Virus record (IMG/VR): IMGVR_UViG_3300045988_111924
Span: 1 to 30,339 of that record
DNA length: 30,339 nt
Reading direction: 5' to 3' (one strand)
DNA from: a virus
The notes below the pieces were generated by a model, which was not told the DNA's origin, did no database searches, and saw only the letters and a program-made list of their open reading frames with translations. Both the position numbers and the translations under genes were made by a program. Each line of letters starts with the position of its first letter. Position 1 is the stretch's first letter. Positions 1 through 30,339 of the stretch are shown here, one piece after another.

Positions 1-85
1 AAATCTCCACTATTTAACTTTACATCTGCATATGTTTGAGCAGAACCTATAATACTACAAAGAGGTACACCATCTATATTAAGGG
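1..85. repeat. Terminal direct repeat copy 1 (identical to 30255..30339). It is either a circular-assembly overlap or a short terminal redundancy.
   Basis: Read directly. The first 85 bases (aaatctccactatttaac...ctatattaaggg) recur exactly as the last 85 bases of the window. Confidence 0.9.
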
Positions 86-365
86 ATAAATCACTAAGAT
101 CTGCGGTAAAACTAAGTACTGTTGATTTAGTACCAGATCCTCTACCCATCCAATCTCTTTGAATATCACTTATAGTTCCATCATAGTTACTAAATATATA
201 ACTGCAAGGATCAACTACTGTAGTTCCTTGTGGAACAGGATTAGCAACTGTAACTATTTGGGGATTACAAGGATTAATAGGCCAGACTTTGGTACTGCCA
301 ATATAAATAGCAGTACCTTGTCTGTCACCTACATAAAATGTTTTTAAACCATCTCTAATATTCAT
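1..365 (-). CDS. 5' (N-terminal) part of a wrap-around gene for a 373-aa tail protein with a C-terminal BspA/DUF285-like LRR domain. It continues at 30254 and runs down to 29498.
   Basis: ATG at 363-365 lies 1 nt after the fibre gene stop (367-369). The frame stays open to base 1. Via the 85-bp overlap, the phase (30256 mod 3 = 1) matches ORF 29498..30028, with no stop in 30029..30254. Confidence 0.75.
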   Translation of the reverse strand, partial: MNIRDGLKTFYVGDRQGTAIYIGSTKVWPINPCNPQIVTVANPVPQGTTVVDPCSYIFSNYDGTISDIQRDWMGRGSGTKSTVLSFTADLSDLSLNIDGVPLCSIIGSAQTYADVKLNSGD

Positions 366-366
366 A

Positions 367-2502
367 TTATTCTACAATTAAATATTGTGTATTAGGATCT
401 TTAGTTGATAAACCATCATACTCTGATTGAGTTAGAACAGTAATAGTATTTATTTGAGGTTGGGTTCCAGTTCCAGCTTCAATATAGTTTCCAGCAGGCT
501 GAATACCTAAATCTGATAAACTCTTATTGCCAGATAACTCAACAGAATTAATCTGAGGTTTATTTGTTAACTGAGTATAATCGGTAGTCCCTCCACTACC
601 AGATATTTCAAGATTACCTTCTCCTAAAATACTTTCACCATTAATAGTCTTTATATTAGTCCCAGAGACTAATTGCTCCTGATAACTATGATAACTAGTA
701 TCTGCTGATACTCCAGTTGGAGTAATAGTAGTTTGAACTACAGTATGATTAGCTGTAGTACTTTCAAAATGGAAAGTAGCTTGAATATTTTCTCCTGAAA
801 CAAAACATACTTCTGGAGCTGCTATATCACCATAACCTAGAATATTTACATAATAAAGCTCAAATGGTGTTTTATTAGCTATAGCATTCTTAACAGCAGC
901 GAAATCTCCAGAAAGATGAGTAGTGGAATTTATAAATAGAAATGGAATATTAGAGCCACTTTCAATTTCTATATTACCTTCTCCAAGTAAAGACTGACTA
1001 TTGATTGTTTTGATATTAGTTCCACTTACAAGTAAATCTTGTTTAGTAGCCATCTCTTTATCAAGAGCATCAATCTTGTTTCCATCTTCTTCTTGCTTTG
1101 TTTTAATAATTGATATGTCTGAAGTATTAGTTGCTACTTGAGTAGATAGAGATTCTACCACAGAAGAATCAGCTTTACCAGCAAGTTCTGTTTTTGTTGC
1201 ATAATCTCCTACAGGCTGTTTAGTAGCAAGCTGCTCATCAACATAAGTCTTATCTGCTTTACCTGCTAAATCTCCAGAAACCTCTGCTTCACTTACAAAG
1301 TTAGAATCATTAGTAAGCTCACTAATTTTAGTTGGAATATCACTCTTTAAAGCATAATCACCAACTGGTTGGTATCCAGATAAATCTACAGATAATTGGG
1401 ATTTATCTTCATTAAAAGCTAATGGAGCTTGTGGAGTAAATACACCTTGCTTAGTTGCAAGTTTCTCATCTACTTCATCTTTAGTATAACCTTTATTAGT
1501 AAGATCAACCTCAGTAACTTTAACAGTCATATTACCATTATTTACTAAGATTGCATTAATAACTACTAATACACCATTATCTTGGAAATAATAGCCATAT
1601 AAATCAATAGTTTCGGGATGCTCAATAGTTGCAACAGGAATAACTATAATATCACCTTTATATGTAATCTGGCAGAATAAATAGAAGTCCAGATTAGTTC
1701 TAATAAAGTCATAGATATGTTTCTGTCTTACAGGATCATTCTCATCTAAATTAAGTAAGAAATGATTCTCAAAAGCAGAGATTACATTATCTATAATAGA
1801 TATATTCTTTCCTGCTGTAAGCGTTCCTTGTTTTGAAGCTATCTCTTTATTAATAGCTGTATTTAAAGCATCAATTTCAGCTTTAGTATATTTATCTGCT
1901 AATTGTGCATATAGAGGACCATTAACAATACCAGCTTGATTAGTCTCTGTATTATATATTGGAAGTTCAACTGCTTCTCCAGTTTGATTACCAAATACAG
2001 GAGCTAAAGTAACTTTAGATGGGACTGATTGAATATTAATGGCAGGTACTATTGAAGCTGCTCCAGATAATTCAGTTCCATTTAAAGATGGTTTGTTACG
2101 AATAGTATTATAATCTGCAGAAATAGTATTCTCTTCAATTACTATACCGTCACCTTGAACGAGTGTATTTTGCTTTCCAGCAGTGGCTTCAGTAATCTCT
2201 GTAGTTACCTCTTCTTTAGTTGGATAGTCAGCTAGTTTCTCAGTAATCTGATTATCAACATCTTCAATAGAAGGAATTCCTAATTCTTTAGAAGGAATAT
2301 TTCCATTTAATTCAACCCCATTGATTTCAGGCTTAAATTGAAGATCTTGATAGTTACTTGATCCTAACTGAGAACCATCCATAACCTTAACTTCATCATC
2401 CTTGTCAATAACAATAACTTTAGTCACATTTGACTTATCTATTGTTTCGACTTCAAGGACATTAAGATAGGGAAGAATTGTCTTTTCAGTTTCGTTTGCC
2501 AT
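367..2502 (-). CDS. Tail fibre protein (711 aa) with repeated NKPxINGxELxG and IKTINGxSxLGEGNIEI motifs
   Basis: Intact ORF with ATG start and TAA stop. Internal repeats and fibre-like composition. Follows an intrinsic terminator and precedes the LRR tail protein. Contains no Trp codon. Confidence 0.7.
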   Translation of the reverse strand: MANETEKTILPYLNVLEVETIDKSNVTKVIVIDKDDEVKVMDGSQLGSSNYQDLQFKPEINGVELNGNIPSKELGIPSIEDVDNQITEKLADYPTKEEVTTEITEATAGKQNTLVQGDGIVIEENTISADYNTIRNKPSLNGTELSGAASIVPAINIQSVPSKVTLAPVFGNQTGEAVELPIYNTETNQAGIVNGPLYAQLADKYTKAEIDALNTAINKEIASKQGTLTAGKNISIIDNVISAFENHFLLNLDENDPVRQKHIYDFIRTNLDFYLFCQITYKGDIIVIPVATIEHPETIDLYGYYFQDNGVLVVINAILVNNGNMTVKVTEVDLTNKGYTKDEVDEKLATKQGVFTPQAPLAFNEDKSQLSVDLSGYQPVGDYALKSDIPTKISELTNDSNFVSEAEVSGDLAGKADKTYVDEQLATKQPVGDYATKTELAGKADSSVVESLSTQVATNTSDISIIKTKQEEDGNKIDALDKEMATKQDLLVSGTNIKTINSQSLLGEGNIEIESGSNIPFLFINSTTHLSGDFAAVKNAIANKTPFELYYVNILGYGDIAAPEVCFVSGENIQATFHFESTTANHTVVQTTITPTGVSADTSYHSYQEQLVSGTNIKTINGESILGEGNLEISGSGGTTDYTQLTNKPQINSVELSGNKSLSDLGIQPAGNYIEAGTGTQPQINTITVLTQSEYDGLSTKDPNTQYLIVE

Positions 2503-2556
2503 ATTATTTTTCTATAAAATATAAATTATTCATTATGTGGTATATAAACAAAATAA

Positions 2557-2593: not shown

Positions 2594-3118
2594 TTAAGCA
2601 CCTACAACGCTTTGGATAGCTTCTGCAGATAACTCATAAGGATAAGAATCTGAATCTGTTGAAAGTGTCAGAGTATAAGCATTCTGATCACCTTTAGCAG
2701 TACCAGTAACACCCGTACCAGCGGAAGCGCTTACATAATCATCTTTACCTAAGAACCAATACTTACCATTGCTATCTTCAACAACAACTGCAAGCTGACC
2801 AATTGATAAAGCTGCAATCTCTACTCGTTTTGCTGTTTCCATCTTTGTAAATACAAGAGCAAGCTCATTACTTACATAATTAACACCAGCACTTTCATCT
2901 ACATTTAAAGTTGAGGTTAGAGAACCAGTAGCCTTTCTAAATTGGTAGTTATACCATTTAGCTGAAGACTCAAGAGTAATAGCTGAAATCATATTGCTCT
3001 CAGGATCAACCGTTACACTTTTAACATCTGCATACTGGGTAATCCATACCTGTTTGATCCCACCCAATGAAGGTTGGCAATCAAGTGTGATTCCTGCGAT
3101 AGTTATTAAACAAGCCAT
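2594..3118 (-). CDS. Major tail (tube) protein candidate (174 aa)
   Basis: Intact ORF directly downstream of the capsid gene and followed by a strong terminator, which suggests a highly expressed structural gene. Size and beta-rich composition fit siphovirus tube proteins. All 3 Trp are TGG. A head-decoration role is not excluded. Confidence 0.45.
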   Translation of the reverse strand: MACLITIAGITLDCQPSLGGIKQVWITQYADVKSVTVDPESNMISAITLESSAKWYNYQFRKATGSLTSTLNVDESAGVNYVSNELALVFTKMETAKRVEIAALSIGQLAVVVEDSNGKYWFLGKDDYVSASAGTGVTGTAKGDQNAYTLTLSTDSDSYPYELSAEAIQSVVGA

Positions 3119-3158: not shown

Positions 3159-4064
3159 TTAAGCCTTGGCACCTAATACTACTTCGTCAGGGAAAGCAAC
3201 TTGTACACCAGCGTTAAATTCAATAGCTAATCTGAACTCGCGGAAATCCTGTGAATACCACAATTCGAATTTCTCTTCATCGTTCATCATATCTACACCA
3301 TAGAAGAAGTTCTTGTCTAACTGACCAGCAACAATCTTATCAGTTCCATTAAGACCATTAACAGCAATAACCTTAACCTGTGAACCAGGAAGATAAATCT
3401 CACCATCAAGGCTCTCTCCGCTATAGTGGAAATAGTTCTTCTCAACAAGTTCATTTACGAACTTACGGAACATATCGGCACCAACAAGAATCGAAGCACC
3501 ATCAAGAACCTTCTCAGGAATTGCATTATAAACTGCCATAATGTCAGTATAGGCAGATGTTCCAGCAATTGTTACATCTACAGTACCAGCATCATCAGCA
3601 AGAATCTTAAGCAGACCATCAAAATACTTCAAGTTATTAGTTTCTGAAGCCGTATCACCCTGCCAGATAGCTACCTCAATAGCCTCTTTTACGTTCTCTA
3701 CAACAGCATTTACGAAATCCTCTTCAAAAGGAAGAGTCTTCTGACCAGCGGCTACCTTAACTGCATACTGAGTCCAGTATTTCAGCATAGCCTTATCGCA
3801 ATATGCCATATTAATCTTAATATTACCAGTCTTAAGAATTCTCTGAGAAAGAGTCTGAGTTCCAGACTCATCCCAACCACAAGTAAGACCATCACCGAAC
3901 TGAACATCGGTAGATAACAGGTTAAGAGCAGCATCAGTTTTAATATCTGTCTGAAGATTAAATAAACTTGCACTCTTAGCTTTTAAAACCGCTTCCTTAA
4001 TAAGAGGGAGACGTCTTTGCTCCACATAAGCAGGAAGCGTTGTCATAATTGGTGAATTTGCCAT
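3159..4064 (-). CDS. Major capsid protein, probably HK97 fold (301 aa)
   Basis: Intact ORF downstream of the protease and scaffold genes. Size and sequence character are typical of phage major capsid proteins. All 4 Trp are TGG and there is no TGA. Confidence 0.75.
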   Translation of the reverse strand: MANSPIMTTLPAYVEQRRLPLIKEAVLKAKSASLFNLQTDIKTDAALNLLSTDVQFGDGLTCGWDESGTQTLSQRILKTGNIKINMAYCDKAMLKYWTQYAVKVAAGQKTLPFEEDFVNAVVENVKEAIEVAIWQGDTASETNNLKYFDGLLKILADDAGTVDVTIAGTSAYTDIMAVYNAIPEKVLDGASILVGADMFRKFVNELVEKNYFHYSGESLDGEIYLPGSQVKVIAVNGLNGTDKIVAGQLDKNFFYGVDMMNDEEKFELWYSQDFREFRLAIEFNAGVQVAFPDEVVLGAKA

Positions 4065-4065: not shown

Positions 4066-4635
4066 TTATAAAATTTTAAATAATAATTGTTTGTGAGTTT
4101 TTGATCTTCCAGCTATTACATTATCAATAGCTTTCGGATTAAATCCATCTAGTTTTAATTCGTTTCTCGTTTTATACATTTTAATTAATTTTCCGTCTAA
4201 AGAATAACAACCAATGTTATAGTCTTTATGCCAATTAGAGCCAACTCTTGATTTAGAGATTTGAGCTTTAGATACTTCTGTATGATGTCTGCCATAAAAA
4301 GGATTTTTCTCTCCAGAGTGATTATGACCTTGTCTTTTTCCTCCTTTTAATCCTCCAGGTTCTTGATTCATACATAACGGATCTGTTTTTCATAAATCTC
4401 CAACTCAATAAGCTTCCCTTTCAGCATTTTCTTCTTTAGAAGCATTCAGTTCAATTATTGTTTTACGGTATGTACCAACTGTTCCGTATTTATCGAAAAA
4501 AGATTTACAAAACCGACCACTGCCTCTATAAGCCTTATCATTTTCTGGCTTATAATTAACTGTTCGTTTTCCTATATAATATTTGCCAATATGTTTTGGA
4601 TGTAGGAAGTCGATTTTATAAATATAATGATACAT
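4066..4635 (-). CDS. GIY-YIG homing endonuclease (189 aa) inserted between the scaffold and capsid genes
   Basis: Track ORFs 4405..4635 and 4066..4371 share a frame and are joined by TGA at 4405-4407 and 4390-4392. N-terminus reads YIYKI...YYIGK (GIY-YIG). Read as EREAY-W-VGDL-W-K, the first TGA sits at the Trp position of the E-x-x-x-W-I motif known from I-TevI-type enzymes. A NUMOD3-like GEKNPFYGRHHT follows downstream. Confidence 0.8.
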
Positions 4636-5240
4636 TAACCAATAAAGTTTTTAAGCTTTCTATCTATTTCTGCTATCCCACTTATAGGAGCAGTTGTTTT
4701 ATTTTCAAGTGTTTCCTCTGCTGAAAAAGCAGCACTCATCTTACTCATTTTTTCTACAGTCTTTTCAGTAGCTTCTGATTTTCCTTCAAGTTCTGCTACT
4801 TTCTTAACAAGCTTATCAACAATGTCATAAAGCTCATTAATTTCGCGATGAATAGCGTCGATTGCATCAGTCTCAGTTTCTTTAACACCGTCTGTTTCAA
4901 CAGCAGGATCAGTAACTTCCTCAGCTTTTACTTTCTTAGTTCCACAAGCAGCATCAACCTCAACAGTTCTCATACCCTCTTCAGGATCAACCTCAGCTTT
5001 AGGATCAGTAATGGACTCTACTTTACCGTCTTTAACAACAATCGTTTTGCCATCTTCGGTAATATACTCACCATCAGCAGCAGGTGCATATTCGCCATTT
5101 TCATCAGCTACATAAACATCCATACCTTCTCTCAGATCCTCCTCTGAATCCCAAGTAAGCACAGCCTTGTCAGTTTTAACATCACTGAACTTTGCAAGCA
5201 TCTTAGCTAACTCAAGTTTAATTTTTGTGAATTTACTCAT
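4635..5240 (-). CDS. Scaffolding protein candidate (201 aa, acidic)
   Basis: Intact ORF between the protease and capsid genes. Acidic, with a coiled-coil-like C-terminus. Its stop overlaps the next ATG (TAATG). Confidence 0.5.
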   Translation of the reverse strand: MSKFTKIKLELAKMLAKFSDVKTDKAVLTWDSEEDLREGMDVYVADENGEYAPAADGEYITEDGKTIVVKDGKVESITDPKAEVDPEEGMRTVEVDAACGTKKVKAEEVTDPAVETDGVKETETDAIDAIHREINELYDIVDKLVKKVAELEGKSEATEKTVEKMSKMSAAFSAEETLENKTTAPISGIAEIDRKLKNFIG

Positions 5241-5246: not shown

Positions 5247-5840
5247 TTAATGTTTAACTCTTTTTATTTTTCTCAACATTTTTTGAATCTCTTTAAGTTC
5301 CTCATATTCATCAGATTGTCTTTCTAAAGTAAACAATCCCTCAATAGAGAACCCTTTAAACTTGCCAGCTTTAATTGCATCCCATATAACAGGATTATTT
5401 ACTTTATAAGTAGCAAATAATGAACCATCTGGGCAATCAGTAAATTCAACTGGATTAATTCCTCTATCTATATCTTTAATATATAGTTCTTGAAGAATTA
5501 TTCCAGGGATTACTGAATCTTCCAAATGTTCAATATTTACATCAGTAGTTCTCTTATCATACATCATTTTTTCAGCCATTAAACGGAGAGTTTCTTTATC
5601 ATATTGAATATAATATTCTCCGTTTTTACTATCCCGTCTAAATATAGGTATATCACATACCATTAAACAAGAAGTAACTATATGTTTTTCTTCATCCATC
5701 GAGAACTTCTGAGATTCCCCAAAAGCAAGCCAATTAACTTGGGTTGCAGGTTTACTGGTCAATGCTACGAACTCTATTCCATCACAATCATCGGCAATAA
5801 TTGCTTGATATAATGGAAGATCATTATACATTTTTTCCAT
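5247..5840 (-). CDS. Prohead protease candidate, XkdF-like (197 aa)
   Basis: Intact ORF. The N-terminal segment IEFVALTSKPATQVNWLAF resembles the conserved start of XkdF-type phage proteases. Position is upstream of scaffold and capsid genes. Confidence 0.55.
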   Translation of the reverse strand: MEKMYNDLPLYQAIIADDCDGIEFVALTSKPATQVNWLAFGESQKFSMDEEKHIVTSCLMVCDIPIFRRDSKNGEYYIQYDKETLRLMAEKMMYDKRTTDVNIEHLEDSVIPGIILQELYIKDIDRGINPVEFTDCPDGSLFATYKVNNPVIWDAIKAGKFKGFSIEGLFTLERQSDEYEELKEIQKMLRKIKRVKH

Positions 5841-6034: not shown

Positions 6035-8803
6035 TTAGAAACTTGCATTTGATTCTGTAACTGCAACTTTAGTTTGAGCATTAGTAATATCACTCTCAAC
6101 TACATAGCATTTAACAGGTTCATTTAATAAATCAGTCTCTTTATCACCAAGTAAGTTTCGAGTATATTCTACAGGAGCAGTGTTTAAAGCAGCAGGTGCT
6201 GCAACAGATGCAGAAGCAGAAGATGCAGATGCTCCACTAGTTTCATCTACCTCTCAAATCTTTTTAACATTTGCAATACCTGCAACTACTGCGGCTGCAG
6301 CTGCAGCAATACCTAAAGCAGGACCTACAATAGGAATTCCTGCCATAGCAGAGTATGCGCTATTTGCTGCTGAATAAGTGTCAATTAAAGCTTGTGCAGT
6401 AGCAAATCCTTTTCCAACTTTACTCTCTTCTCCCCAAATACTTGCCATACTTCCTGCAATGCTTGAAGCTACAGATAAAGTACCTTGTAAAGCTTGCTGC
6501 CTTGCTTTTTGAAGATTTTGATAAGCCTGAGTATTTGCCTGTTCATTAGCTAATTGAGCATCTGATAAGGCCATATTATTCTCAGTAAGAGTTCTTTGAA
6601 TTTCCTCTTTTTGTTCAGCAGTTAATTGTTCATTCATTAATTGCTGACTTAATAAGGCATTCTCTTGCTCTATTCTACCTTGAGTTAATGAGAGTAAGTT
6701 GTTATTGTATTCAATTTGAGCATTGTATTGATTCTCTAAGTCCTCTCTACTCTGATATGTAAATTTATAACCAGTCCCTTCATAATCTCCAGCTAATCCA
6801 AATGCTTTCGATATACCTTGAGTATAAGTAGTCTGAAAGGTCTGCTCTCTTGGCTCTCTCAAATTACTTGTAGAAGATAAATCTCTAATCCTTTTTAATT
6901 CAGACTGTAGATCATTCCAAGCTTTATCTGCATCTGCTTTACGCTTAGCTTCTTCATCAGCTCTAGCTTTATCTCTAATCTTTTTAAGTTCTTCCTGATG
7001 CCAAGCTTCTACCTCTTCAATTCCCCTATTATACTTAATAGCTAATGCTAATAGTCTAATATATTCATCTTCAAGTTCATCTACTGGGTCTTTATCCTCT
7101 AATCTCTTTTGAAGCCATTCATCAAATTCATTTATTACCTTCTTAGCTTCAGTAGTGTTCTTTGTAATAGTTGGAATATTAAAGAACCCACCATACTTTT
7201 TATTAGTATCTGCTACATCCTCAAATAGCTTTTTAAGCCTTTTCTCAATGTCTTTATTTAAATCATCCAACTGTTTATAAGTATTCTCTTTATTTTGCTT
7301 TGTATACTCATAAATTGTATTTGAATAATCTTTTCAGAACATTGCTGTAGCTTTAAAAGCCTGCCAAGCAGATACCTCTCCAAAACTTGTATCAGAAATT
7401 TGATTCTCCAGTTCAGTACGTTTGTTTAAATACTCCTCATAAAGCTTAATTGCAGCCTGTTCAATAGCCTGAGCTTTTGCTCTTGCAGTTAATGCTTCTA
7501 CATAATTACCAGTATTATTTACAAACGCATCTTCTGCAGTCTTTACATCAGTGATATTTAAACCAGTCTCTTTAATCTTATCTGAATATTGCTCTATAAA
7601 CTTACGCTTAGCATCTGCAGAATCTCCAACCCTTTCGTAAGCTATTTGGAGCTCTCTAAAGATAGCTATAGATTTAGAAGCAATCTGATTAGTAGTATCT
7701 GTAATAGACTTTCTAAATTCAGCAGCCTCCTTTTCAGCTGATTTTATTGAGGATATATACTCTATTATCTTATTAATAGCTACTCCAATAGCTGTAGCTA
7801 ATGCAATTCATACAGTTACATTACCAATAGTTTTAAGTGCAGTTTTAACTTTACCTACTCCAGAAGCAGCTTGTTCTGAAGCTTCAGCCATTGCTTTCTG
7901 AGCCTCTGCTCCTTTTCGCAAAGTTGGAATGCCTTTTTCTACATTTTCCTTTAATTCAGCAAGATCTACACCTAAACGTTTAGCAGCTTTCTGCATTCTC
8001 TCTGCTAGAGTTCCAGTCTCTTTTGCTGTTTCCTTTAAAAATTCAGCAACTGTAGTAAATGTAGGTTTTACTTCTTTAAAAGACTTTTTTGCAGTTTCTC
8101 CTAATTTACCTATAATTGGAATCGTATTAGATACACTCTTATTAGAAGCAGATATTTCAGCAGGAGTTCCAAGCATACCCTGAACCATTCCACCTCTGAG
8201 ATTAATATTGGTGCCTTCTAAATCCTTGACTACTTTAGAGATATTACCTAATTCAGTTCCAACATTACCAACAGATGTGCCAATGCCATTAAGCTTAGAT
8301 GTATCAATCTGATTAAGGTTTTTGGCAGCATTATTCAATCCTGTATTAAATGGGGAAATAAAATCAGTTAATTTCTTAAACCAATTACCTAAAGTGGGTA
8401 ATTCTTCTAATAAATCTTTTATACCTCCCACACCTTGAACTAAAGCAATAGTAGATTGTAACTTAACCATTACTTTATTTAAATCTTCTGATTCTTTCCC
8501 AAATAAAGTAATAGCAGCAGTTGCAGCACCATATCCACTAGCTAAGCCAGTGGATATTTTAGCTACACTTTCAAATCTTTGAGCAGTAGTTCTCGAAGAT
8601 CTTGCTATCTGCTCATTAATTTTATTGAACTCTGATTGTCTTTTACCTAGTAATGCAAGAGTTTCATTATATTCCTTAGTACCAATCTCTAAATCATTCA
8701 GAGAACTAGATAATGCGTCAATATCTTTCTTTAAAGAGTTTATTGACTTATTACTTGACTTAGTATCAATACTAATTACTTTTTTAATTTCTGTTTGTGC
8801 CAT
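6035..8803 (-). CDS. Tape-measure-like protein (922 aa)
   Basis: Track ORFs 7808..8803 and 6254..7270 and the unlisted stretches 7271..7807 and 6035..6253 form one frame. The only interruptions are TGA at 7808, 7334 and 6254. I checked every codon in 7337..7807 and found no TAA or TAG. Long coiled-coil sequence with Ala/Gly-rich hydrophobic segments, typical of tape-measure proteins. TAA stop at 6035. Confidence 0.7.
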
Positions 8804-17753: not shown

Positions 17754-17842
17754 AATTAGCGCTTTTTAGTATAAGTAAATATAGAAATTAACTTTCCATT
17801 CTTGTAGTGATAAATAACTTCTGTTTCCATAAAATATAATTT

Positions 17843-20393: not shown

Positions 20394-20549
20394 ATGAAAA
20401 ATTCGATTAAAAACAATGGAACAATTATTATTGAAGATAATACAATTAAGAGCACTATGGAGAATTCAATTCCTTGTTCTGATGAACAATTTGCTAACTT
20501 ATTAGCTAACTCTCCTACAATTGCAGCTTATTTTAGTAAAAATAAGTAA
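20394..20549 (+). CDS. Hypothetical small protein (51 aa)
   Basis: ATG at 20394, TAA at 20547-20549. Followed by an intrinsic terminator. Confidence 0.4.
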   Translation: MKNSIKNNGTIIIEDNTIKSTMENSIPCSDEQFANLLANSPTIAAYFSKNK

Positions 20550-20563
20550 TTCTACTACTTCTA

Positions 20564-20589
20564 GGCAGGTGAAAGTCCTGCCACTTTTT
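20564..20589 (+). terminator. Rho-independent terminator
   Basis: Sequence is ggcagg-tgaaagt-cctgcc, followed by acttttt. Confidence 0.6.
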
Positions 20590-20599
20590 AATATTAAGG

Positions 20600-20648
20600 T
20601 GTCAACTTTTTACTCACCTGATGTGTATAGATAAAATAAAAATAGACA
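20600..20648. promoter_or_regulatory. Conserved quasi-palindromic intergenic element, copy C
   Basis: Sequence is tgtcaactttttactcacctgatgtgtatagataaaataaaaatagaca. It ends 26 nt upstream of the helicase ATG. Confidence 0.7.
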
Positions 20649-20673
20649 ATTAATAACCAAAATTATTACAACT

Positions 20674-22464: not shown

Positions 22465-22626
22465 ATGGAAAATGATATTAAAGAAACAATTAAACAAACA
22501 GAAGAGTATATTAAAGAGTTAGATAGATGAATTCTCGAATGTAAAGAGGCTACTAAAAGATTTGGTGATATTATAGACAAAGTATTAAAAAATAAAGATT
22601 ATATGTTTATTTCTAAATTTGATTAA
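22465..22626 (+). CDS. Hypothetical small protein (53 aa)
   Basis: ATG at 22465, TAA at 22624. One in-frame TGA at 22528 (ELDR-W-ILECK). Under the standard code it would be only 21 aa. Confidence 0.4.
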
Positions 22627-22949: not shown

Positions 22950-23540
22950 TTAAACATATCTTCACTTGAATCCTTTTACTTTATATCCTTCTCTAATTGC
23001 TTTAGAAATAGAATTTTTATGAACTCCAACATCTAAAGAAGTACTAACAGCACAATCATATTCTTTAATAAGAACATCATCTTTATATGCACCTACTTTT
23101 TTGGCTCTAGGATTATTGCCAAAAGAATTATTTAAATAGCTCAAATCTCTTCCTTTCTGGCTATCACTCATCTTTTTCCTAGTTTCTTCTGATAGATGTC
23201 TTCCAATACTTTTAGCTCTTATCTTATCTTTTCTTTCTTGAGTAAATATAATTCCACAAGTACCGTCTCCTCCATCAGTAGCATTATACCCATATTTTGG
23301 ATTTCTAGTATTATACTTATAAATCAGAATCTTTTCTAAAGTCTTAGCACAAGCTTCTGGAAGATTATCTCTAATTATAATATGCTCAAAATTATCTCAA
23401 CCATATTTTTTAATTGCTTTATAAAATGGCTGCTTTTTGTAACCTGTACCATTAGCTCATCTTATTTCAGGTTTCTTACAGGTAATACCAAAATATAATT
23501 TATTATTAGTTTTATTCTTATGATAGTAAAGAGAATACAT
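22950..23540 (-). CDS. GIY-YIG homing endonuclease (196 aa), second copy of this class
   Basis: Track ORF 22962..23171 is only the C-terminal fragment. The frame is open from the ATG at 23538-23540 through TGA at 23457, 23397 and 22962 to TAA at 22950. Reads YYHKNKTNNKLYFGIT...EIR-W-ANGTGYKKQPFYKAIKKYG-W-DNFEH...GFK-W-RYV. The KYGWDNF and RW positions are conserved Trp in this family. Confidence 0.8.
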
Positions 23541-23986
23541 TATACTAATGTGAAATATTGGTTCTTTAAATTATTAGGATTATATGAAATATGCCATCAA
23601 GAAGGCACTCCTTTTTTAGGTTTTTCTCTTATTATTTGTGAGAATTTAATAGTTGGAATTAATTGCTCAATAAACTTATCAAATTCTTCCATTCTTTTAT
23701 TTGCAGGTTTTAAATCAGCAGCAAATCCTCATAAATGATCCGAGGTTTTAGATCCACCAACTGCTTTATTTAAAAGATTACTTCTATAACCTGATGTTAC
23801 TATTATAGCAGGATTACCGAGATTGTTGTCATTGCAATATTTTGCCCACTTTTCTCTCATAGTATCCAATAAATTATCAACTAATATATTCAGGTTTGAA
23901 ATTGTTTTTTCATCTGGAGTATTATCAATGCCTTTTTGTTCAGCAGTTGTAGATCTTGTTAATTCGCTAATAGTAAAATATTTCAT
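23540..23986 (-). CDS. Endolysin, Peptidase_M15-type (148 aa)
   Basis: Track ORF 23729..23986 continues through TGA at 23729 and 23597 to TAA at 23540. The SxHxxGxAxD zinc-peptidase motif reads S-D-H-L-(TGA)-G-F-A-A-D. The start overlaps the holin stop. Confidence 0.75.
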
Positions 23987-24150: not shown

Positions 24151-24804
24151 TTATTTATTTAAAATTATACTTATTTTAATTCCTGCATCTCTTAGTTTTA
24201 CTCAAGTATCAACTGGCATCTCATTATCACAATAAGATAATCCTAAAATTCCAATATCTCTATCTTCTGATTTTAAATAGAATATTGCAATCTTATTAAC
24301 CTCATTAGATTTAAATGCATAATACATTCTTCTATCTAATTCCTTTATATCTTCAACATCTCCAAATCATCCTCCTTTTTTAGATGTTTCCAATATAAAT
24401 AAATAATCAGATAATAGGAAGTCTTTATAGTGACTTGAAACTGGAGCAACTCCAGGTTCTGTTTCTTCACTATTCATAATTCCATAAGTGAATGGTAATC
24501 CTCCTAATCCTGAAGTGCCATTATGATACTCAATAACTCAAGCTCTATCTGCATTCGTATCATTTAAAAGATCTTTAAGGATATATCTAACCTTAAGATC
24601 CGCTTCTTGTCGTATTACTTGATTAGTATTATGAACTGTTTCTATATAACTTACAACTTTATCATATATTATTCCTGGATTAGTACTTATAATTATTACA
24701 TAAGAAATAAATATAAATCCAAATCCGCCTTTAATTATTTTTCACAGTCCATATTTATCTACTCATTCTAATACCTTTCCAAACCAGTTTAATTTATTTT
24801 CCAT
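24151..24804 (-). CDS. Membrane-anchored protein of unknown function (217 aa), upstream of the holin
   Basis: Absent from the standard-code track. ATG at 24802-24804, TAA at 24151. Five in-frame TGA at 24763, 24742, 24538, 24367 and 24202. N-terminal hydrophobic helix GGFGFIFISYVIIIS. Confidence 0.6.
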
Positions 24805-25230: not shown

Positions 25231-25911
25231 TTACTTACTCTTTTTATTGTTATCACTTGAAGGGAAATCATAAGCTCTTTGCAGAGGACCTTCACAAGAA
25301 TTATATCTCCAACCTTTACCTCTAGCTCCACCTAACCAAATAGTACAAGATGAACTTGAATACATATTTGGATACATATCTTTAAGAGGTTTATAAGAAT
25401 ACAATTCAGGAAAATCATTATAATATGTAATTACCCAATTTTGCAATCTAGTTTTAAAGAAATCTGCTTTATCTCTATAATACTTCTTAATAAGATTAAC
25501 TTGATTAATATCAGAAGTTAAATCTTTCTCATCATCAGTCCTCATAACCCCAAAGTTACTAAGCTTAAATGAGATGGGTATAGTAATCTCACTTAATACT
25601 TGATAAAGTAAATAAGGCTGAATATAGTAATCTAGCAATTCTTTATATCTATGATTTTCTGGGTCATCTATTGAAGTAGGATCATAAATAGGAGGTTCTA
25701 TTGGATGAACTGGTTTATTTGGATCTTTTCAATCAATTACTAATTTCTGAATCTTTTCTAAGAGCTTAGTTCCAATTAATGACTGAAGCTCAATATCTTG
25801 TGCACTAAAAATTGCTGATTGCAAGTACTTTCCCGATACATTATTATCTAGACTAGAATTAGATTTAATATAGTCTTCGGATATAAGCATTACGTTTCTA
25901 TAACTATTCAT
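25231..25911 (-). CDS. Head-tail connector or head-completion candidate (226 aa)
   Basis: Track ORFs 25729..25911 and 25231..25638 share a frame and are joined through TGA at 25729 (KLVID-W-KDPNKP). Position is directly downstream of the portal gene. The function call is weak. Confidence 0.4.
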
Positions 25912-25975: not shown

Positions 25976-27067
25976 TTATTCAACATTTTCTGCATTATCT
26001 GACATTCCTTTTGGAGTTAAACTAAATGGTTCAATAGTAATGCTATTCTTAATACCGAAGATTTTATCAAATGAATCACAAATTTCTGATTGTATTGGGC
26101 GTACAAAAGTACGATTATATAGCTTAAATGCTTCATTAAACTCATTTTCATTAAATCCTGAGCTATAGTTTAAACCGAACAACGAAGGATTAGCTCTGAA
26201 GGCACAGAATATTTGATCTCTGGTTCTCTCAGATAATGATTGATATTTCTCATCAAAATCATCAGAATCTAATCTTTCAATAGTAGTCTTATTTGCCTCA
26301 TCTGCATTATATGAAATCAATATTCTGCCAGCATTCTGATAACCAGAGAACTTCTCATTAATATTCCTCTCAATCTCCTCTCTAATTTCATCTGTAGGTT
26401 CCCCATTATTAAAGTTAATAATAAGATTACCCATAAATCCATTATTGATGTTATTTAAATGGAATTCATTAATATTTTTCTCAGTTTCACAAGATAAAAT
26501 AGCAGCTCCATAAACAGGAATAGGATATACTCCTCTTGTTATATAACCTTTATTATAAAATATACTAGCTGGATTTTCATCCCCAGCTCCAAATTTTGGA
26601 TATTTTATAGCTTTTACAGACCAAGCTGTCCAATCAGTTGCATAATATAATATATCATTCTTTTCGCTTGACCTTACATTCATAAAATCAATATGATATA
26701 TCTCTGCAACTCTTCCGAGCATATCTCTAATTACTTGGATAGCATAACCTCCAAATATCATCTTATCAATAGTGATTTTTCTCATTATATCAACTATTGT
26801 TTCACCTTTCTTGTTTACAACTACTTCAAATCCTGGAGCATTACATTTAACATCGTTACCAACAATAAAGTCAGCAGAACCATTAATAATGGATTGGAGA
26901 GTGGCAACATTTAAATATAAATCCCATAGATATAATGGATATTTGTTATCTTCTCCCCACATTATCATATCAGAACCTCTTTTCTTTGTTTCCGTTGGAA
27001 GAACGATGTTAGATTGAATGAAAGGATCTATGGCTGACATCATTATTTTACTTTTATTTTCGCTCAT
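25976..27067 (-). CDS. Portal protein (363 aa)
   Basis: Intact ORF. The N-terminal W-x-x-DN-x-YP-x-x-L-x-x-L...S-x-x-L-x-SII-x-G pattern and the overall length resemble PBSX/HK97-type portals. All 4 Trp are TGG. Confidence 0.65.
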   Translation of the reverse strand: MSENKSKIMMSAIDPFIQSNIVLPTETKKRGSDMIMWGEDNKYPLYLWDLYLNVATLQSIINGSADFIVGNDVKCNAPGFEVVVNKKGETIVDIMRKITIDKMIFGGYAIQVIRDMLGRVAEIYHIDFMNVRSSEKNDILYYATDWTAWSVKAIKYPKFGAGDENPASIFYNKGYITRGVYPIPVYGAAILSCETEKNINEFHLNNINNGFMGNLIINFNNGEPTDEIREEIERNINEKFSGYQNAGRILISYNADEANKTTIERLDSDDFDEKYQSLSERTRDQIFCAFRANPSLFGLNYSSGFNENEFNEAFKLYNRTFVRPIQSEICDSFDKIFGIKNSITIEPFSLTPKGMSDNAENVE

Positions 27068-27598: not shown

Positions 27599-28576
27599 TT
27601 AGTTTGAACTTGCTAAAGTTCAGTTTTTAGATGCAGCTAATGATTTCTGTTCCTCAGTAAGTGCATTATAAACTGCAGAATTAAATGTAATAGTTTGTGT
27701 AGAAATTCCAGTTAAATCTGACACTGCTTCTAGAACATTATCAACTGAACTAGACGTTAATGAAGGAAGATTAGCTAAAGTAAATGACTTACTTGTAACT
27801 ACACCTCCGAATTCTGTTAATTCAGTTAGCCAGTATGAACTTCCAAATGTATAGCCAAAAGCTGTGGAGTCTAATGACTTATCAGGAGATATAGTTATTT
27901 TGCCTAAAGATTTTAATTTTTTACAATATGTAAACATCTGATTTGTTTGACCAGTACAGTTTGGAGCGTAAATATCTGGAATGGTTTCAATTGATTCACA
28001 ATAATTGAAAATGCCAGAAAGAGAAGTTGCTATAGAAAAATCTATATTTGGTAAAGTAAGCAAACTACTACAGTTACTAAAAGTTTGAAAATATTGAGAT
28101 AATTTTAAATTTGCATCTATTTCAACTAACTTAGTGCAGTTATAGAAAAGTTGGGAACCTTGATTACTGGTGCTATTTAATAAGGTTATTTTATGTATAC
28201 CATTAGCGGTGGAAATGGTATAAAACATAGTATTCATATTTTTGCCTTGGCAATCAAATGTGAATTCATCGTTTTGAGACCATTCACATCCGTAGAAAAA
28301 ATGATCATAAGAATATTTATTTAGTATAAAATAATCCTCCAATTTTAATTCCCCACCATCCCTAAATTTATGCATATTAGAAAATCCTAATGATAATGGA
28401 ATAATACTTAAATCAATTTTACCTCCACCACCTCCAGATATTTCTCCAATCTTTTCTGCATAACTTCTAAAGGTATCTGAATCTGATACAGCAACACCTT
28501 TAGCTACAATAGCATCTTTAATGGCACTCTTAGTACCTTCAAGATACGTTAATTTATCAGAAATTGTATTTGCCAT
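27599..28576 (-). CDS. BspA/DUF285-like leucine-rich-repeat tail protein (325 aa), receptor-binding candidate
   Basis: Track ORF 27620..28576 continues through TGA at 27620 to TAA at 27599 (...EEQKSLAASKN-W-TLASSN). Repeats of the type FxxCxxLxxIP...MFxxCxxL. The C-terminus is paralogous to 29498..30028. Confidence 0.65.
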
Positions 28577-29256: not shown

Positions 29257-29258
29257 AA

Positions 29259-29495
29259 TTATCTAACTTTTATTGATTCCTCATACTCTTTAGAAGCTTT
29301 AATAGCTAATTCTTTATATTCAGCATCCTTATCTAAAGAGACTTCTGATAGATGCTCTAAATCGCAACTTAAAGGACAGATACATTCAGTAAATGAACTG
29401 TATAATTTAATATCCATTCCTTCTTTATAGTTAGTAAGTATATAACCTTCTTCTGGACTAACTACTTTATATTTTTCTTTAATTTCAATTTTCAT
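29259..29495 (-). CDS. Hypothetical small protein (78 aa)
   Basis: I trimmed the track ORF to the ATG at 29493-29495 (MKIEIKEKY...), 2 nt after the upstream stop at 29498. Confidence 0.4.
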   Translation of the reverse strand: MKIEIKEKYKVVSPEEGYILTNYKEGMDIKLYSSFTECICPLSCDLEHLSEVSLDKDAEYKELAIKASKEYEESIKVR

Positions 29496-29497
29496 AA

Positions 29498-30339
29498 TTA
29501 TGCAACTCGATTTATGCTCCAATTCTTTGAAGCGATTAATGATTTCTGTTCATCTGTTAATTTATCATATGCAGTAGATTTGAATGATATACTTGTATTA
29601 GAACTTACTGCTGTGCCAATAGATTCTGCTATAGTTTGTAATGAATCTGTAGATAAATTTGGAGATTGTGCAAAATAAAGAATTCCTCCTTTAGTTAAAC
29701 TCTCTCCTAATCCATTTAAAGCTCCTACAGTTACTAATTCTGGACAATTTGCAGCAAAACTAGTACAATCTGTAACAAGATGGCAATCTATTTCTGGTGT
29801 AGCTGTTAATCTACTACAAGTACTAAACATATAGCTTATATCTGTAATTCCAGTAAAGGTAAAATTACTTGGAATAGTTGTTAGATATAATGCTCTATGA
29901 AACATATGATTACAATCTCCTTTAAATGGAATATTAATCGTTATATTATCTATATTAGTAGCTCCATCATCTGTCTCTGCAAATGCCCATTTTGGATCTA
30001 CTAATACAAGATTTTGAAAATTATTCATTACAGAGAAATCATTATTATCTATTTTTACTCCAATAAATAAATAATTTGCACTTACTTCTTTAGTAGTTGT
30101 AGGTATTTTAACATTAGATAAAGTAGCACTATGTATTGTTTGACCCCAAAATTGAGATTCACTAGACCATCTTCCATATGCTTCATTAAGATTAGTAATC
30201 TCCTGGTTATTTAGATCAAAATGAGATGTTTCAAAAAACCCTCCTTTTCTACTTAAATCTCCACTATTTAACTTTACATCTGCATATGTTTGAGCAGAAC
30301 CTATAATACTACAAAGAGGTACACCATCTATATTAAGGG
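29498..30339 (-). CDS. 3' (C-terminal) part of the wrap-around BspA/DUF285-like LRR tail protein. Its N-terminus is at 1..365.
   Basis: The frame of ORF 29498..30028 stays open upstream to the window end, with no stop in 30029..30339. The repeat motif MFHRALYLTTIP...ISYMFSTCSRLTATP is DUF285-like. Ends ...EQKSLIASKNWSINRVA, with the Trp encoded by TGG at 29519-29521. Confidence 0.7.
   Translation of the reverse strand, partial: LNIDGVPLCSIIGSAQTYADVKLNSGDLSRKGGFFETSHFDLNNQEITNLNEAYGRWSSESQFWGQTIHSATLSNVKIPTTTKEVSANYLFIGVKIDNNDFSVMNNFQNLVLVDPKWAFAETDDGATNIDNITINIPFKGDCNHMFHRALYLTTIPSNFTFTGITDISYMFSTCSRLTATPEIDCHLVTDCTSFAANCPELVTVGALNGLGESLTKGGILYFAQSPNLSTDSLQTIAESIGTAVSSNTSISFKSTAYDKLTDEQKSLIASKNWSINRVA
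30255..30339. repeat. Terminal direct repeat copy 2 (identical to 1..85)
   Basis: Read directly. Exact 85/85 identity with the window start. Confidence 0.9.

What the first reader, a model, noticed from the sequence alone, without database searches (positions are those of the whole stretch)
1..30339. Genome-wide reassignment of TGA from stop to Trp (table-4-like): 42 in-frame TGA codons in 18 genes
Wherever neighbouring standard-code ORFs on one strand break, the pieces are in the same frame and the only intervening stop is TGA. I walked these frames codon by codon.
- 8803..12243 is open except for 8 TGA. This includes a 717-nt stretch (10645..11361) that is missing from the ORF track yet has no in-frame TAA or TAG.
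- 12246..14426 is open except for 3 TGA, and its 636-nt gap 13389..14024 has no TAA or TAG.
- 6035..8803 is open except for 3 TGA.

In a genome this AT-rich, TAA/TAG-free runs of that length in a single frame are not expected by chance. Several genes appear only after recoding, for example 17843..18175 (5 TGA in 110 codons) and 24151..24804 (5 TGA). Every gene end I checked is TAA, or TAG at 15183, 15826, 18692 and 22390. No gene needs TGA as its terminator.

TGA falls where family knowledge expects Trp:
- the E-x-x-x-W-I position of the GIY-YIG domain (4405)
- KYG-W-DNF and R-W in the second GIY-YIG (23397, 23457)
- F-x-x-W-L-x-x-I-x-x-N of sigma region 2 (19077)
- GFK-W-RYV in an endonuclease tail (22962)
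Basis: partly seen in the sequence, partly recalled or inferred. Interest (0 to 1): 0.92.

Follow-up and report, generated by a model that had tools for sequence, protein, structure and literature searches.

The report
Gut phage reads TGA as tryptophan
This is the complete 30-kb genome of an uncultured human-gut phage that uses the stop codon TGA as a tryptophan codon in 18 genes, a known kind of recoding, but it carries no tRNA of its own to read that codon.

Summary
Reading TGA as sense raises ORF coverage from 0.70 to 0.90. Reading TAG as sense does not.

TGA means Trp, not Gly. In about 35 related contigs, the window's TGA codons are replaced by TGG 181 times and by GGA once. TGG codons are replaced by TGA 195 times. 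In standard-code homologues these sites hold W, F or Y. One TGA is the near-invariant Trp of the M15 endolysin family.

The window is a complete circular phage genome of 30,254 bp with an 85-nt terminal overlap, and it comes from human gut. TGA-to-Trp gut phages are already described, and public gene calls for this phage already use code 4. It is therefore a new member of a known kind.

What remains open:
- Neither this genome nor about 65 loci from related contigs hold a tRNA, release factor or aminoacyl-tRNA synthetase.
- Indirect host clues point to Bacteroidota, which use the standard code.
- TGA is under-used (34% of Trp codons) and is absent from the capsid and helicase genes.
- Clade members exchange TGA-containing tail-fibre modules with TGA-recoded crAss-like phages.

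How UGA is decoded is unresolved.

The parts
1..85 (.). Terminal direct repeat, identical to 30255..30339. It is an assembly overlap of a circular genome, so the unique genome is 30,254 bp.
   Evidence: D2: 85 nt, 100% identical
4066..4635 (-). Homing-endonuclease-like gene (NUMOD3; ERE-x-Y-W motif), 189 aa. TGA at 4405 and 4390.
6035..8803 (-). Tape-measure-like tail protein, 922 aa. TGA at 7808, 7334 and 6254.
8803..12243 (-). Large tail protein, 1146 aa. TGA at 11362, 11215, 10867, 10657, 10306, 9646, 9244 and 9232.
   Evidence: The public gene call for this phage is also 1146 aa.
12246..14426 (-). Tail protein, 726 aa. TGA at 14025, 13488 and 12858.
14429..14917 (-). Tail-completion/Neck1-like protein, 162 aa. 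TGA at 14864.
15183..15824 (-). Unknown protein, 213 aa. TGA at 15753. TAG stop.
15826..17073 (-). Terminase large subunit, 415 aa. TGA at 16513. This site is W in the 42%-identical standard-code TerL of L035 and L036.
17843..18175 (-). Holin-like membrane protein, 110 aa. TGA at 18083, 18044, 18029, 18002 and 17978 (5 of 6 Trp codons).
18144..18710 (-). HNH_3/NUMOD4/NUMOD1 homing endonuclease, 188 aa. TGA at 18267.
18692..18949 (-). HTH / sigma-70 region-4-like protein, 85 aa. TGA at 18845.
18933..19241 (-). TGA at 19077 and 18954. Site 19077 is TGG in 27 of 33 relatives.
19231..19665 (-). Unknown protein, 144 aa. Its homologue in the sister lineage L212 has a weak PDDEXK_14 hit. TGA at 19591 is kept as TGA in all 28 aligned relatives. 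It is the second gene downstream of the leftward host-type promoter.
22465..22626 (+). Small plus-strand ORF, 53 aa. TGA at 22528. This is the 18th gene and the 42nd TGA.
22950..23540 (-). GIY-YIG/NUMOD3 homing endonuclease, 196 aa. TGA at 23457, 23397 and 22962 (all 3 Trp codons).
23540..23986 (-). Peptidase_M15_3 endolysin, 148 aa. TGA at 23729 and 23597. The 23597 codon is W130, the near-invariant Trp before the last zinc-binding His. The protein is 51% identical to the endolysin of Bacteroides phage vB_BfrS_UZM3.
24151..24804 (-). Membrane protein next to the lysis genes, 217 aa. TGA at 24763, 24742, 24538, 24367 and 24202.
25231..25911 (-). DUF6712 protein, 226 aa. TGA at 25729.
27599..28576 (-). 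BspA-type LRR (fibre-like) protein, 325 aa. TGA at 27620. The paralogous C-terminus of the junction gene has TGG at this position (...SKNwTLASSN versus ...SKNWSINRVA).
3159..4064 (-). Probable major capsid protein, 301 aa. It follows the protease (5247..5840) and the scaffold-like gene (4635..5240). It has 4 TGG and 0 TGA, and 0/64 across the clade.
20674..22392 (+). DExH helicase-like protein, 572 aa. It is the main gene on the plus strand. It has 5 TGG and 0 TGA, and 1/84 across the clade.
19947..20673 (.). Divergent control region. It holds three Bacteroidota-type promoter matches (TTTG-N17-23-TAnnTTTG): 20142..20173 on the minus strand, and 20241..20271 and 20321..20352 on the plus strand.
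   Evidence: 3 observed, 0.106 expected, P=0.0005. Sigma-70-type sites are not enriched.
25976..27067 (-). Portal protein, 363 aa. 4 TGG and 0 TGA.
367..2502 (-). Tail fibre, 711 aa, with no Trp codons in the window. In a circular 27-kb clade member, the middle 2.25 kb of this gene is replaced by a module 90-95% identical in nucleotides to a crAss-like phage fibre.

Best explanation
The window is the complete, circularly assembled 30,254-bp genome of an uncultured, apparently virulent tailed phage from the human gut. In it UGA is translated as tryptophan.

Shown:
- 42 in-frame TGA codons lie in 18 genes. They sit in tail, packaging, lysis, regulatory and homing-endonuclease genes.
- TGA never terminates a gene.
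- TGA and TGG substitute for each other freely within the clade.
- TGA sits at family-conserved Trp or aromatic positions.

Inferred:
- The host is most likely a Bacteroidota (Bacteroidales) bacterium with the standard code. On that reading the recoding is a property of the phage lineage, as in the recoded gut phages already described.
- The genome encodes no recognisable tRNA, release factor or tRNA synthetase. The UGA-reading tRNA must therefore be supplied by the infected cell. It could come from the host itself or from a co-resident or co-infecting element. One candidate is the TGA-recoded crAss-like phages with which this lineage swaps fibre modules.
- Decoding seems costly or limited. 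TGA is selected against in the most abundant virion proteins and in the helicase gene. It is tolerated or favoured in low-copy and lysis-related genes, where it could also delay expression.

Sub-probabilities: TGA is a Trp sense codon, about 0.97. The host is Bacteroidota, about 0.65. The decoder is not phage-encoded, about 0.6.
For: Recoding:
- ORF merging is specific to TGA.
- TGA and TGG interchange (181 and 195 events; GGA once).
- standard-code homologues hold W, F or Y.
- one TGA is the invariant W130 of the M15_3 endolysin.
- 0 of 32 genes stop at TGA, against 9-58% in standard-code relatives.
- public gene calls of the same phage are already 1146, 922 and 726 aa.

Complete genome without a decoder:
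- 85-nt terminal repeat.
- no tRNA in the window or in about 65 loci from related contigs, including the sister lineage.
- no tRNA-like Rfam hit, even at E<=10 in intergenic DNA.
- no translation-related domain.

Host:
- the endolysin is 51% identical to that of a Bacteroides fragilis phage.
- Bacteroidota-type divergent promoters (3 versus 0.1 expected), while sigma-70-type sites are not enriched.
- only 2 of 32 genes have a Shine-Dalgarno-like motif.
- homologues of the helicase gene lie in Hymenobacter and in prophages beside Bacteroidota-type integrases and BACON-domain genes.
- recent fibre-module exchange with crAss-like phages.

The recoding is phage-specific rather than host-wide:
- relatives with 42-46% TerL identity use the standard code.
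- phages sharing the helicase gene include TAG-recoded ones, one of them integrated in a standard-code host contig. No bacterium is known to read TAG as a sense codon.

Limited decoding:
- the TGA share is 0.34-0.43, against 0.67-0.76 in the crAss-like phages and 0.7-0.9 for other A/G codon pairs. It is 0/64 in the capsid gene and 1/84 in the helicase gene.
Against: - No host is identified directly. There is no prophage copy in 185,579 species genomes, and no CRISPR evidence could be sought.
- All host clues are indirect.
- TGA also occurs in genes directly downstream of the host-type promoters on both sides (19591, conserved in 28/28 relatives; 22528). UGA must therefore be readable early in infection. 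That fits a cell which already decodes UGA better than it fits a late code switch.
- Two unrelated phage lineages that share fibres both use code 4. That is also what a code-4 host would produce.
- The literature reports that 65-85% of predicted code-4 phages lack a detectable suppressor tRNA (10.1101/2021.08.26.457843; PMC11210395). Absence alone is therefore a common, unexplained state rather than proof of supply from outside the phage.
Confidence: 0.55

Rival explanations
1. The host itself uses code 4 (UGA=Trp, no RF2, tRNA-Trp UCA), and the phage simply mirrors its host, as Mycoplasma and Spiroplasma phages do. Candidate hosts are an undescribed gut lineage or the recently described code-4 Eggerthellaceae.
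For: - No tRNA anywhere in the clade.
- TGA occurs in genes next to the early promoters on both strands.
- TGA is never a stop.
- An unrelated crAss-like lineage that shares fibre modules is also code 4.
- According to PMC12386605, four of five opal-recoded zeta crAss-like genomes also lack a TCA suppressor.
- Walled code-4 bacteria with 31-40% GC do exist in mammalian guts (PMC13462651).
Against: - The phage needs an intact peptidoglycan endolysin, so wall-less Mollicutes are unlikely hosts.
- The promoters are Bacteroidota-type, and only 2 of 32 genes have a Shine-Dalgarno motif. This argues against Bacillota and Actinomycetota.
- No code-4 Bacteroidota is known (PMC13462651 lists the phyla).
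- The TGA share is far below mutational expectation, and TGA is purged from the capsid and helicase genes. This is unexpected if a cognate tRNA reads both codons.
- Related phages are TAG-recoded or standard-code.
Confidence: 0.25
2. The phage carries its own unconventional decoder. This could be a tRNA too aberrant for ARAGORN or Rfam, or a small protein. Such a protein might neutralise RF2 or edit or modify host tRNA-Trp(CCA) so that it reads UGA.
For: - About 2.2 kb is intergenic, and several ORFs of 21-53 codons have no known function.
- The authors of the recoding survey suspect that non-canonical tRNAs are being missed (10.1101/2021.08.26.457843).
- tRNA-Trp(CCA) variants can read UGA (PMC13092985).
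- A is slightly enriched at the base after TGA (0.40 versus 0.30 after TGG). From my own knowledge, this is the leaky context reported for E. coli by Engelberg-Kulka (1981).
Against: - No tRNA-like match at E<=10 in any intergenic region.
- Relaxed ARAGORN settings give only noise.
- The only ultraconserved non-coding stretch (17754..17842) does not fold.
- No deaminase, release-factor or tRNA-enzyme domain.
- Near-cognate readthrough could hardly deliver a protein with 8 TGA codons.
- The context bias is weak, and the sites are not phylogenetically independent.
Confidence: 0.12
3. TGA encodes glycine (table 25), as in phages of Gracilibacteria and Absconditabacteria.
For: Low GC content. Hosts with TGA reassigned to glycine occur in human microbiomes (PMC10746230).
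Against: Of 728 aligned codons opposite window TGA, one is GGA and 181 are TGG. GGA and GGT codons never align to TGA among the eight most frequent partner codons listed for each. Standard-code homologues hold G at 3 of about 134 aligned sites.
Confidence: 0.01
4. The TGAs are real stops. The genes would then be fragmented pseudogenes, sequencing or assembly errors, or isolated programmed readthrough or selenocysteine sites.
For: None beyond the formal possibility.
Against: - The same TGA positions recur in dozens of independent assemblies.
- The frames stay open for up to 1146 codons.
- Amino-acid conservation continues across the TGAs.
- Forty-two sites that toggle with TGG cannot be SECIS-dependent selenocysteine sites.
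Confidence: 0.01

Closest known systems
Stop-codon-recoded gut phages using code 4 (Borges et al., bioRxiv 10.1101/2021.08.26.457843; UHGV code-4 vOTUs in Cook et al., PMC11210395)
   Same: Human or animal gut origin. TGA is read as Trp. Close or distant relatives use the standard code or code 15. Recoded codons are concentrated in lysis and structural genes. Many members have no detectable suppressor tRNA.
   Different: The genome is small (30 kb) and complete, and the whole clade has no tRNA at all. TGA is also present in genes next to the early promoters and is absent from the capsid gene. The pattern is therefore not a clean split between standard-code early genes and recoded late genes. 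I could not test membership in any of the named clades (Garnet, Amethyst, Topaz, Agate and others).
Opal-recoded zeta crAss-like phages (proposed Echekviridae, for example phage Lera; PMC12386605)
   Same: Human gut. 30-33% GC. TGA=Trp in structural and lysis genes. Predicted Bacteroidales hosts for some. The crAss-like contigs found here (L148-L161) share a 2.25-kb fibre module, 90-95% identical in nucleotides, with a member of this clade.
   Different: They are an unrelated lineage: 155-190 kb, a crAss-type TerL of 772 aa, and 17-34 tRNAs that sometimes include Sup-TCA. Their TGA share is at mutational equilibrium (0.67-0.76), against 0.34-0.43 here.
Phages of Mycoplasma and Spiroplasma (code 4 inherited from the host)
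   Same: TGA=Trp with no phage suppressor tRNA needed. AT-rich genomes.
   Different: Those hosts have no cell wall, whereas this phage keeps an intact M15 peptidoglycan endolysin. Its promoters and its lack of Shine-Dalgarno motifs point to Bacteroidota. There is no sequence similarity to any cultured phage genome.
Bacteroides phage vB_BfrS_UZM3 (endolysin only)
   Same: A single-domain Peptidase_M15_3 endolysin, 51% identical over the full length.
   Different: UZM3 has TGG where this phage has TGA at the invariant Trp. No other gene similarity was found.

Membership tests
Genetic code 4 usage (UGA = Trp) | In-frame TGA codons inside otherwise intact, conserved genes | tested here: met
   42 TGA in 18 genes. 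Coverage rises from 0.705 to 0.904.
Genetic code 4 usage (UGA = Trp) | TGA positions correspond to Trp in homologues | tested here: met
   TGA and TGG interchange in relatives. Standard-code homologues hold W, F or Y. One TGA is the invariant W130 of the M15_3 endolysin.
Genetic code 4 usage (UGA = Trp) | TGA not used as a terminator | tested here: met
   0 of 32 stops are TGA. Of 360 aligned stop codons in relatives, none is TGA. Standard-code relatives use TGA for 9-58% of stops.
Genetic code 4 usage (UGA = Trp) | A tRNA able to read UGA (tRNA-Trp UCA or equivalent) is available | tested here: not met
   It is not encoded in this complete genome or in any relative. Whether the infected cell provides one cannot be tested here.
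Genetic code 4 usage (UGA = Trp) | Direct protein evidence (peptides with Trp at UGA) | not testable with these tools
   This needs metaproteomics or virion mass spectrometry.
Phage-specific recoding in a standard-code host (lytic-regulation model of Borges et al.) | The host uses the standard code | tested here: inconclusive
   Indirect clues point to Bacteroidota. There is no direct host link.
Phage-specific recoding in a standard-code host (lytic-regulation model of Borges et al.) | The phage encodes a suppressor tRNA or other code-change machinery | tested here: not met
   No tRNA, release factor or aminoacyl-tRNA synthetase.
Phage-specific recoding in a standard-code host (lytic-regulation model of Borges et al.) | Recoded codons are enriched in lysis and late genes and absent from early genes | tested here: inconclusive
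   The holin-like gene (60%) and the membrane protein (62%) are enriched, and the helicase is 1/84. But the capsid gene is 0/64, and TGA occurs in promoter-proximal genes (19591, 22528).
Genetic code 25 (UGA = Gly) | TGA aligns with Gly codons or residues | tested here: not met
   GGA aligns once in 728 comparisons. G occurs at 3 of about 134 aligned sites.
Crassvirales | crAss-type TerL, portal and capsid genes, and a genome of about 90-190 kb | tested here: not met
   The TerL is 415 aa. Its best cultured matches are 24-29% identical and come from Halorubrum, Meiothermus, Thermus and Pseudomonas phages. The genome is 30 kb. Only a fibre module is shared.

The most novel reading that the evidence does not exclude
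This lineage has outsourced its genetic code. It is a complete phage that encodes no UGA decoder, yet it needs UGA=Trp for its terminase, tail, sigma-like regulator, holin and endolysin inside a standard-code Bacteroidales cell. Decoding would then come from one of two sources. One is a co-infecting TGA-recoded crAss-like phage, with which the lineage demonstrably recombines TGA-containing fibre modules ('code hitch-hiking'). The other is a host UGA-reading capacity not yet described in Bacteroidota.
Probability: 0.3. Interest if true: 0.8.

Novelty: new member of a known kind. Interest (0 to 1): 0.4.

Why it matters
On its own, the recoding is a correct but already familiar call. Code-4 gut phages are published, gene callers detect them, and the public gene calls for this very phage are already made with TGA as sense.

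The practical lesson is that table-11 annotation of this genome breaks 18 genes, including the terminase, the endolysin and all large tail proteins.

The wider value lies in the open question of how recoded phages without a suppressor tRNA get their codon read. This lineage is a small, complete and abundant example:
- dozens of near-complete genomes;
- no tRNA anywhere in the clade;
- clear selection against TGA in abundant proteins;
- host-type promoters;
- documented gene flow with tRNA-rich code-4 crAss-like phages.

That makes it a tractable test case once a host is found.

Tried and rejected
1. The 148,631-bp IMG/VR contig carrying a copy of the phage looked like a prophage in host DNA. 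Walking upstream showed the remainder to be a TGA-recoded crAss-like phage. The contig crosses over inside the fibre gene. A second case of 175.8 kb behaves the same way. No host DNA was found.

2. The GTDB genome scan with a TerL profile found no close prophage. The best matches, at 41-46% identity, are phage-sized contigs placed in MAG bins.

3. Relaxed ARAGORN settings produced 11-94 'tRNAs'. The one with a TCA anticodon (25694..25791, plus strand) is the reverse complement of the in-frame TGA at 25729. That codon is TGG in 8 relatives, so it is noise.

4. The 89-nt ultraconserved spacer 17754..17842 was tested as a hidden RNA. It has no stable fold on either strand (z-scores +1.5 and +1.7).

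5. A PDB sequence search meant to place the GIY-YIG Trp positions on I-TevI found only the NUMOD3 linker.

6. I looked for a codon-context signature of leaky readthrough. It is weak: A at +4 is 0.40 versus 0.30, and C is depleted.

7. Megablast and capsid tblastn searches against 50,697 phage records found nothing.

8. I considered an Eggerthellaceae or Mollicutes host. I rank it second, for the reasons given under rival 1.

Full report
**Observation**

The window is 30,339 nt with 29.8% GC. Its first and last 85 nt are identical. It is therefore a circularly assembled genome of 30,254 bp. Nearly all genes lie on the minus strand.

- 6035..8803 becomes 922 aa with 3 TGA.
- 8803..12243 becomes 1146 aa with 8 TGA.
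- 12246..14426 becomes 726 aa with 3 TGA.
- 17843..18175 and 24151..24804 each hold 5 TGA.

I first counted 41 TGA in 17 genes. The missing one is a plus-strand 53-codon ORF, 22465..22626, with TGA at 22528. It stays open and conserved through the TGA in all 10 ungapped relatives.

All 32 main genes end in TAA (28) or TAG (4).

The effect is specific to TGA:
- ORF coverage is 0.705 under code 11, 0.904 with TGA as sense and 0.727 with TAG as sense.
- The summed length of ORFs of at least 100 aa rises from 8544 to 11749 aa with TGA as sense, against 9428 aa with TAG as sense.
- TAA plus TAG make up about 5.8% of codons per frame. A 1146-codon run free of both has a chance of about 1e-30 (my arithmetic).

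**Which amino acid**

A terminase search of IMG/VR returned 34 contigs with 80-100% TerL identity, most of them 27-33 kb. All are recoded in the same way: code-4 coverage is 0.89-0.94, against 0.54-0.70 for code 11.

I aligned these contigs to the window and read the codon opposite each in-frame TGA.
- Opposite window TGA: TGA 470, TGG 181, TAT 25, ACA 16, and GGA once.
- Opposite window TGG: TGG 1041, TGA 195.

Gly codons exchange mainly among themselves, and terminal TAA never aligns with TGA.

More distant relatives use the standard code. At the window's TGA sites they hold W 33, F 32, Y 17 and G 3. The TerL site 16513 is W in the 42%-identical L035 and L036.

In the M15_3 endolysin, the TGA at 23597 is W130. 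This is the near-invariant Trp before the last zinc-binding His, and it is also W in the endolysin of Bacteroides phage vB_BfrS_UZM3. Inside the window, the C-terminus of 27599..28576 (...SKNwTLASSN, with w marking the TGA) is paralogous to ...SKNWSINRVA in the junction gene, which has TGG there.

TGA is therefore Trp. Table 25, pseudogenes and assembly errors are excluded.

**What the thing is**

It is a tailed phage. Its recognisable genes are:
- terminase, portal, protease, scaffold-like protein, probable capsid protein, tape-measure-like protein and two large tail proteins;
- a fibre and BspA-LRR fibre-like proteins;
- a holin-like protein and the M15 endolysin;
- an HTH/sigma-r4-like protein and a DExH helicase-like protein;
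- three homing endonucleases.

I found no integrase. No cultured phage is similar at the DNA level.

The same phage occurs in human-gut assemblies: ENA LIJU14-1_SAMEA2338814 and GCA_900526895.1. The deposited gene calls there are already 1146, 922 and 726 aa, that is, made with TGA as sense. Seventy-two further metagenome loci, mostly from human-gut assemblies plus some JGI records of unstated origin, carry the capsid gene. Complete contigs cluster at 27-33 kb.

TGA-to-Trp recoding in gut phages is established in the literature:
- 10.1101/2021.08.26.457843;
- PMC11210395, which counts 46 code-4 vOTUs in UHGV;
- PMC12386605.

The phenomenon is known, and this genome is a new, well-resolved member.

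**How the codon is used**

TGA is 34% of Trp codons. The A-ending member of comparable pairs is 69-98%. The spread among genes is non-random (permutation P=0.006), and it is sharper across the clade.

| Gene | TGA share of Trp codons, clade-wide |
|---|---|
| capsid | 0/64 |
| 2594..3118 | 0/33 |
| scaffold-like | 0/9 |
| helicase | 1/84 |
| portal | 14% |
| large tail proteins | 31-40% |
| holin-like | 60% |
| membrane protein 24151..24804 | 62% |
| homing endonucleases | 58-72% |
| 27599..28576 | 79% |

Frequent toggling between TGA and TGG shows that mutation supplies both codons. The empty genes therefore reflect selection against TGA. By contrast, the crAss-like code-4 phages described below sit at 0.67-0.76, equal to their other A/G pairs.

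I read this as costly or limited UGA decoding in this lineage. Enrichment in lysis genes fits the published idea that recoding delays lysis.

**No decoder**

- ARAGORN finds no tRNA in the window, in about 65 loci from related contigs, or in the 27-kb sister lineage.
- Rfam gives no tRNA-like hit at E<=1 over the whole window, or at E<=10 in the intergenic regions.
- Relaxed ARAGORN settings give noise.
- No protein has a release-factor, synthetase, deaminase or tRNA-modification domain.

**Host clues**

All the host evidence is indirect.

1. The endolysin is a small single-domain M15_3 peptidase with intact H-x6-D...H ligands. It is 51% identical to that of a Bacteroides fragilis phage. The host therefore has peptidoglycan.
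2. The 727-nt divergent region 19947..20673 holds three matches to the Bacteroidota promoter consensus, TTTG-N17-23-TAnnTTTG. That consensus is established knowledge (Bayley et al. 2000, cited from memory). The matches are oriented outwards, with 0.106 expected and P=0.0005. Sigma-70-type sites are not enriched, at 5 against 7.9 expected.
3. Only 2 of 32 genes have a Shine-Dalgarno-like motif. From my own knowledge, this is typical of Bacteroidota and their phages.
4. The helicase-like gene has more than 1000 homologues. One, at 46% identity, lies in the Hymenobacter sp. J193 chromosome. Others, at 47-49%, lie in prophages beside Arm-DNA-bind_5/Phage_int_SAM_5 integrases and BACON-domain genes.
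5. There is gene flow with crAss-like phages, described next.

**The crAss-like connection**

One relative sat on a 148.6-kb contig. Walking upstream found no host DNA. Instead I found a crAss-type TerL of 772 aa and fibre genes shared with 85-170-kb contigs. Those contigs have 32-33% GC and are themselves TGA-recoded, with coverage 0.93-0.97 against 0.55-0.63.

The big contig is 99.8% identical to pure crAss-like contigs up to a point inside a fibre gene. It then continues as the small phage. A second contig, of 175.8 kb, crosses over in the same gene.

The cause is a real shared module. A 27,077-bp member of the clade closes on itself with a 55-nt overlap. It has a 1,168-aa fibre whose ends are of the small-phage type. 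The middle 2.25 kb of that fibre gene is 90-95% identical in nucleotides to the crAss-like fibre, and the fibre ORF as a whole carries 8 TGA codons.

The two lineages therefore recombine, which implies the same host cells.

**Where the recoding arose**

- Relatives at 42-46% TerL identity use the standard code.
- A sister lineage of 27.5 kb (capsid 73%, helicase 58% identical) is also TGA-recoded and has no tRNA.
- Other phages sharing the helicase gene are TAG-recoded. One of these is a prophage at a tRNA-Thr gene in a standard-code host contig.

Mixed codes among related phages favour phage-driven recoding over a host-wide code.

**Mechanism and my commitment**

UGA=Trp is shown. That the decoder is not a phage tRNA is shown, within the limits of detection. 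I infer that the infected cell supplies a UGA-reading tRNA, most likely in a Bacteroidales host.

Against a late 'code switch', TGA lies in genes just downstream of the host-type promoters: 19591, conserved in 28 of 28 relatives, and 22528. That pattern would fit a decoder already present at infection, either in a code-4 host (rival 1) or from a resident or co-infecting element.

Published tables show that four of five opal-recoded zeta crAss-like genomes also lack a TCA suppressor (PMC12386605). tRNA-Trp(CCA) variants with 4-bp anticodon stems can read UGA in bacteria (PMC13092985). A host-side capacity is therefore plausible. I cannot discriminate further with these tools.

**Verdict**

Both the observation and the interpretation are correct. 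The class is already known, and the open mechanism gives it moderate interest.

Noticed in passing
window 17754-17842: This 89-nt spacer between the holin-like gene and 17418..17753 is 99-100% identical in 22 relatives, although the flanks are only 69-90% identical. It is the only ultraconserved non-coding stretch in the genome. It has no stable fold. It contains a 24-codon micro-ORF (METEVIYHYKNGKLISIFTYTKKR) directly upstream of the small-terminase-like genes. It may be a pac site or a leader.
   Followed up: partly
window 5927, 6023, 14996, 20607, 27556 (minus orientation) and 22427 (plus orientation): Six copies of a palindromic element of about 50 nt, TGTCAGTTTTTA..N~25..GTGAGTAAAAACTTGACA. 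The 11-mer core is found 6 times against 1.5 expected. All copies lie at operon boundaries in the direction of transcription. At least two (14996, 27556) are followed by a GC-rich hairpin. They are candidates for phage-specific (late) promoters or operators, perhaps for the sigma-like proteins at 18692..19241.
   Followed up: partly
L143 + L237 (IMG/VR 3300045988_105798 = ERZ779669 NODE_390, 27,077 bp); L148-L161: A circular member of the clade has a mosaic tail-fibre gene. Its central 2.25 kb is 90-95% identical in nucleotides to the fibre gene of 85-170-kb TGA-recoded crAss-like phages. This is recent exchange of a TGA-containing receptor-binding module between unrelated code-4 phages.
   Followed up: yes
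L157/L141 (IMG/VR 3300045988_175865, 148.6 kb) and L228 (ORSJ01000015.1, 175.8 kb): Two public 'giant' viral contigs are fusions of a crAss-like phage with this 30-kb phage, crossing over inside the shared fibre gene. They are most likely assembly chimeras and could mislead genome-size or host analyses.
   Followed up: yes
L144 (ENA ERZ28598220 scaffold_71, 132 kb), about 5.9-21.7 kb of the locus: A prophage is integrated beside a tRNA-Thr gene in a standard-code host contig (39% GC). Its terminase, portal and capsid genes become whole only when TAG is read as sense. It carries a 47%-identical homologue of the window's helicase-like gene. L210 (53% identical homologue) is also TAG-recoded.
   Followed up: partly
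window 4066-4635, 18144-18710, 22950-23540: There are three homing endonucleases (two GIY-YIG/NUMOD3, one HNH/NUMOD) in 30 kb. Relatives carry them in different numbers and positions (for example L056 8748-9431, with 6 TGA). They have among the highest TGA shares (58-72%), so these selfish genes appear adapted to, and confined to, recoded phages.
   Followed up: partly
window 23986-24147 (minus strand): An unannotated 53-codon ORF encoding a two-helix membrane peptide lies between the membrane protein 24151..24804 and the endolysin. It is probably part of the lysis cassette. It uses TGG only.
   Followed up: no
window 29498-30254 joined to 1-365 (minus strand): One 373-aa gene runs across the artificial ends of the window. 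The public call in L138 gives the same 373 aa. Its C-terminal BspA-LRR domain is paralogous to that of 27599..28576.
   Followed up: partly
window 20110-20154 and 20340-20384: The arms of a 45-nt inverted repeat each carry one of the Bacteroidota-type -7 boxes (TGTTGTATATTTG). The two divergent early promoters are thus mirror copies, which suggests a shared operator.
   Followed up: no
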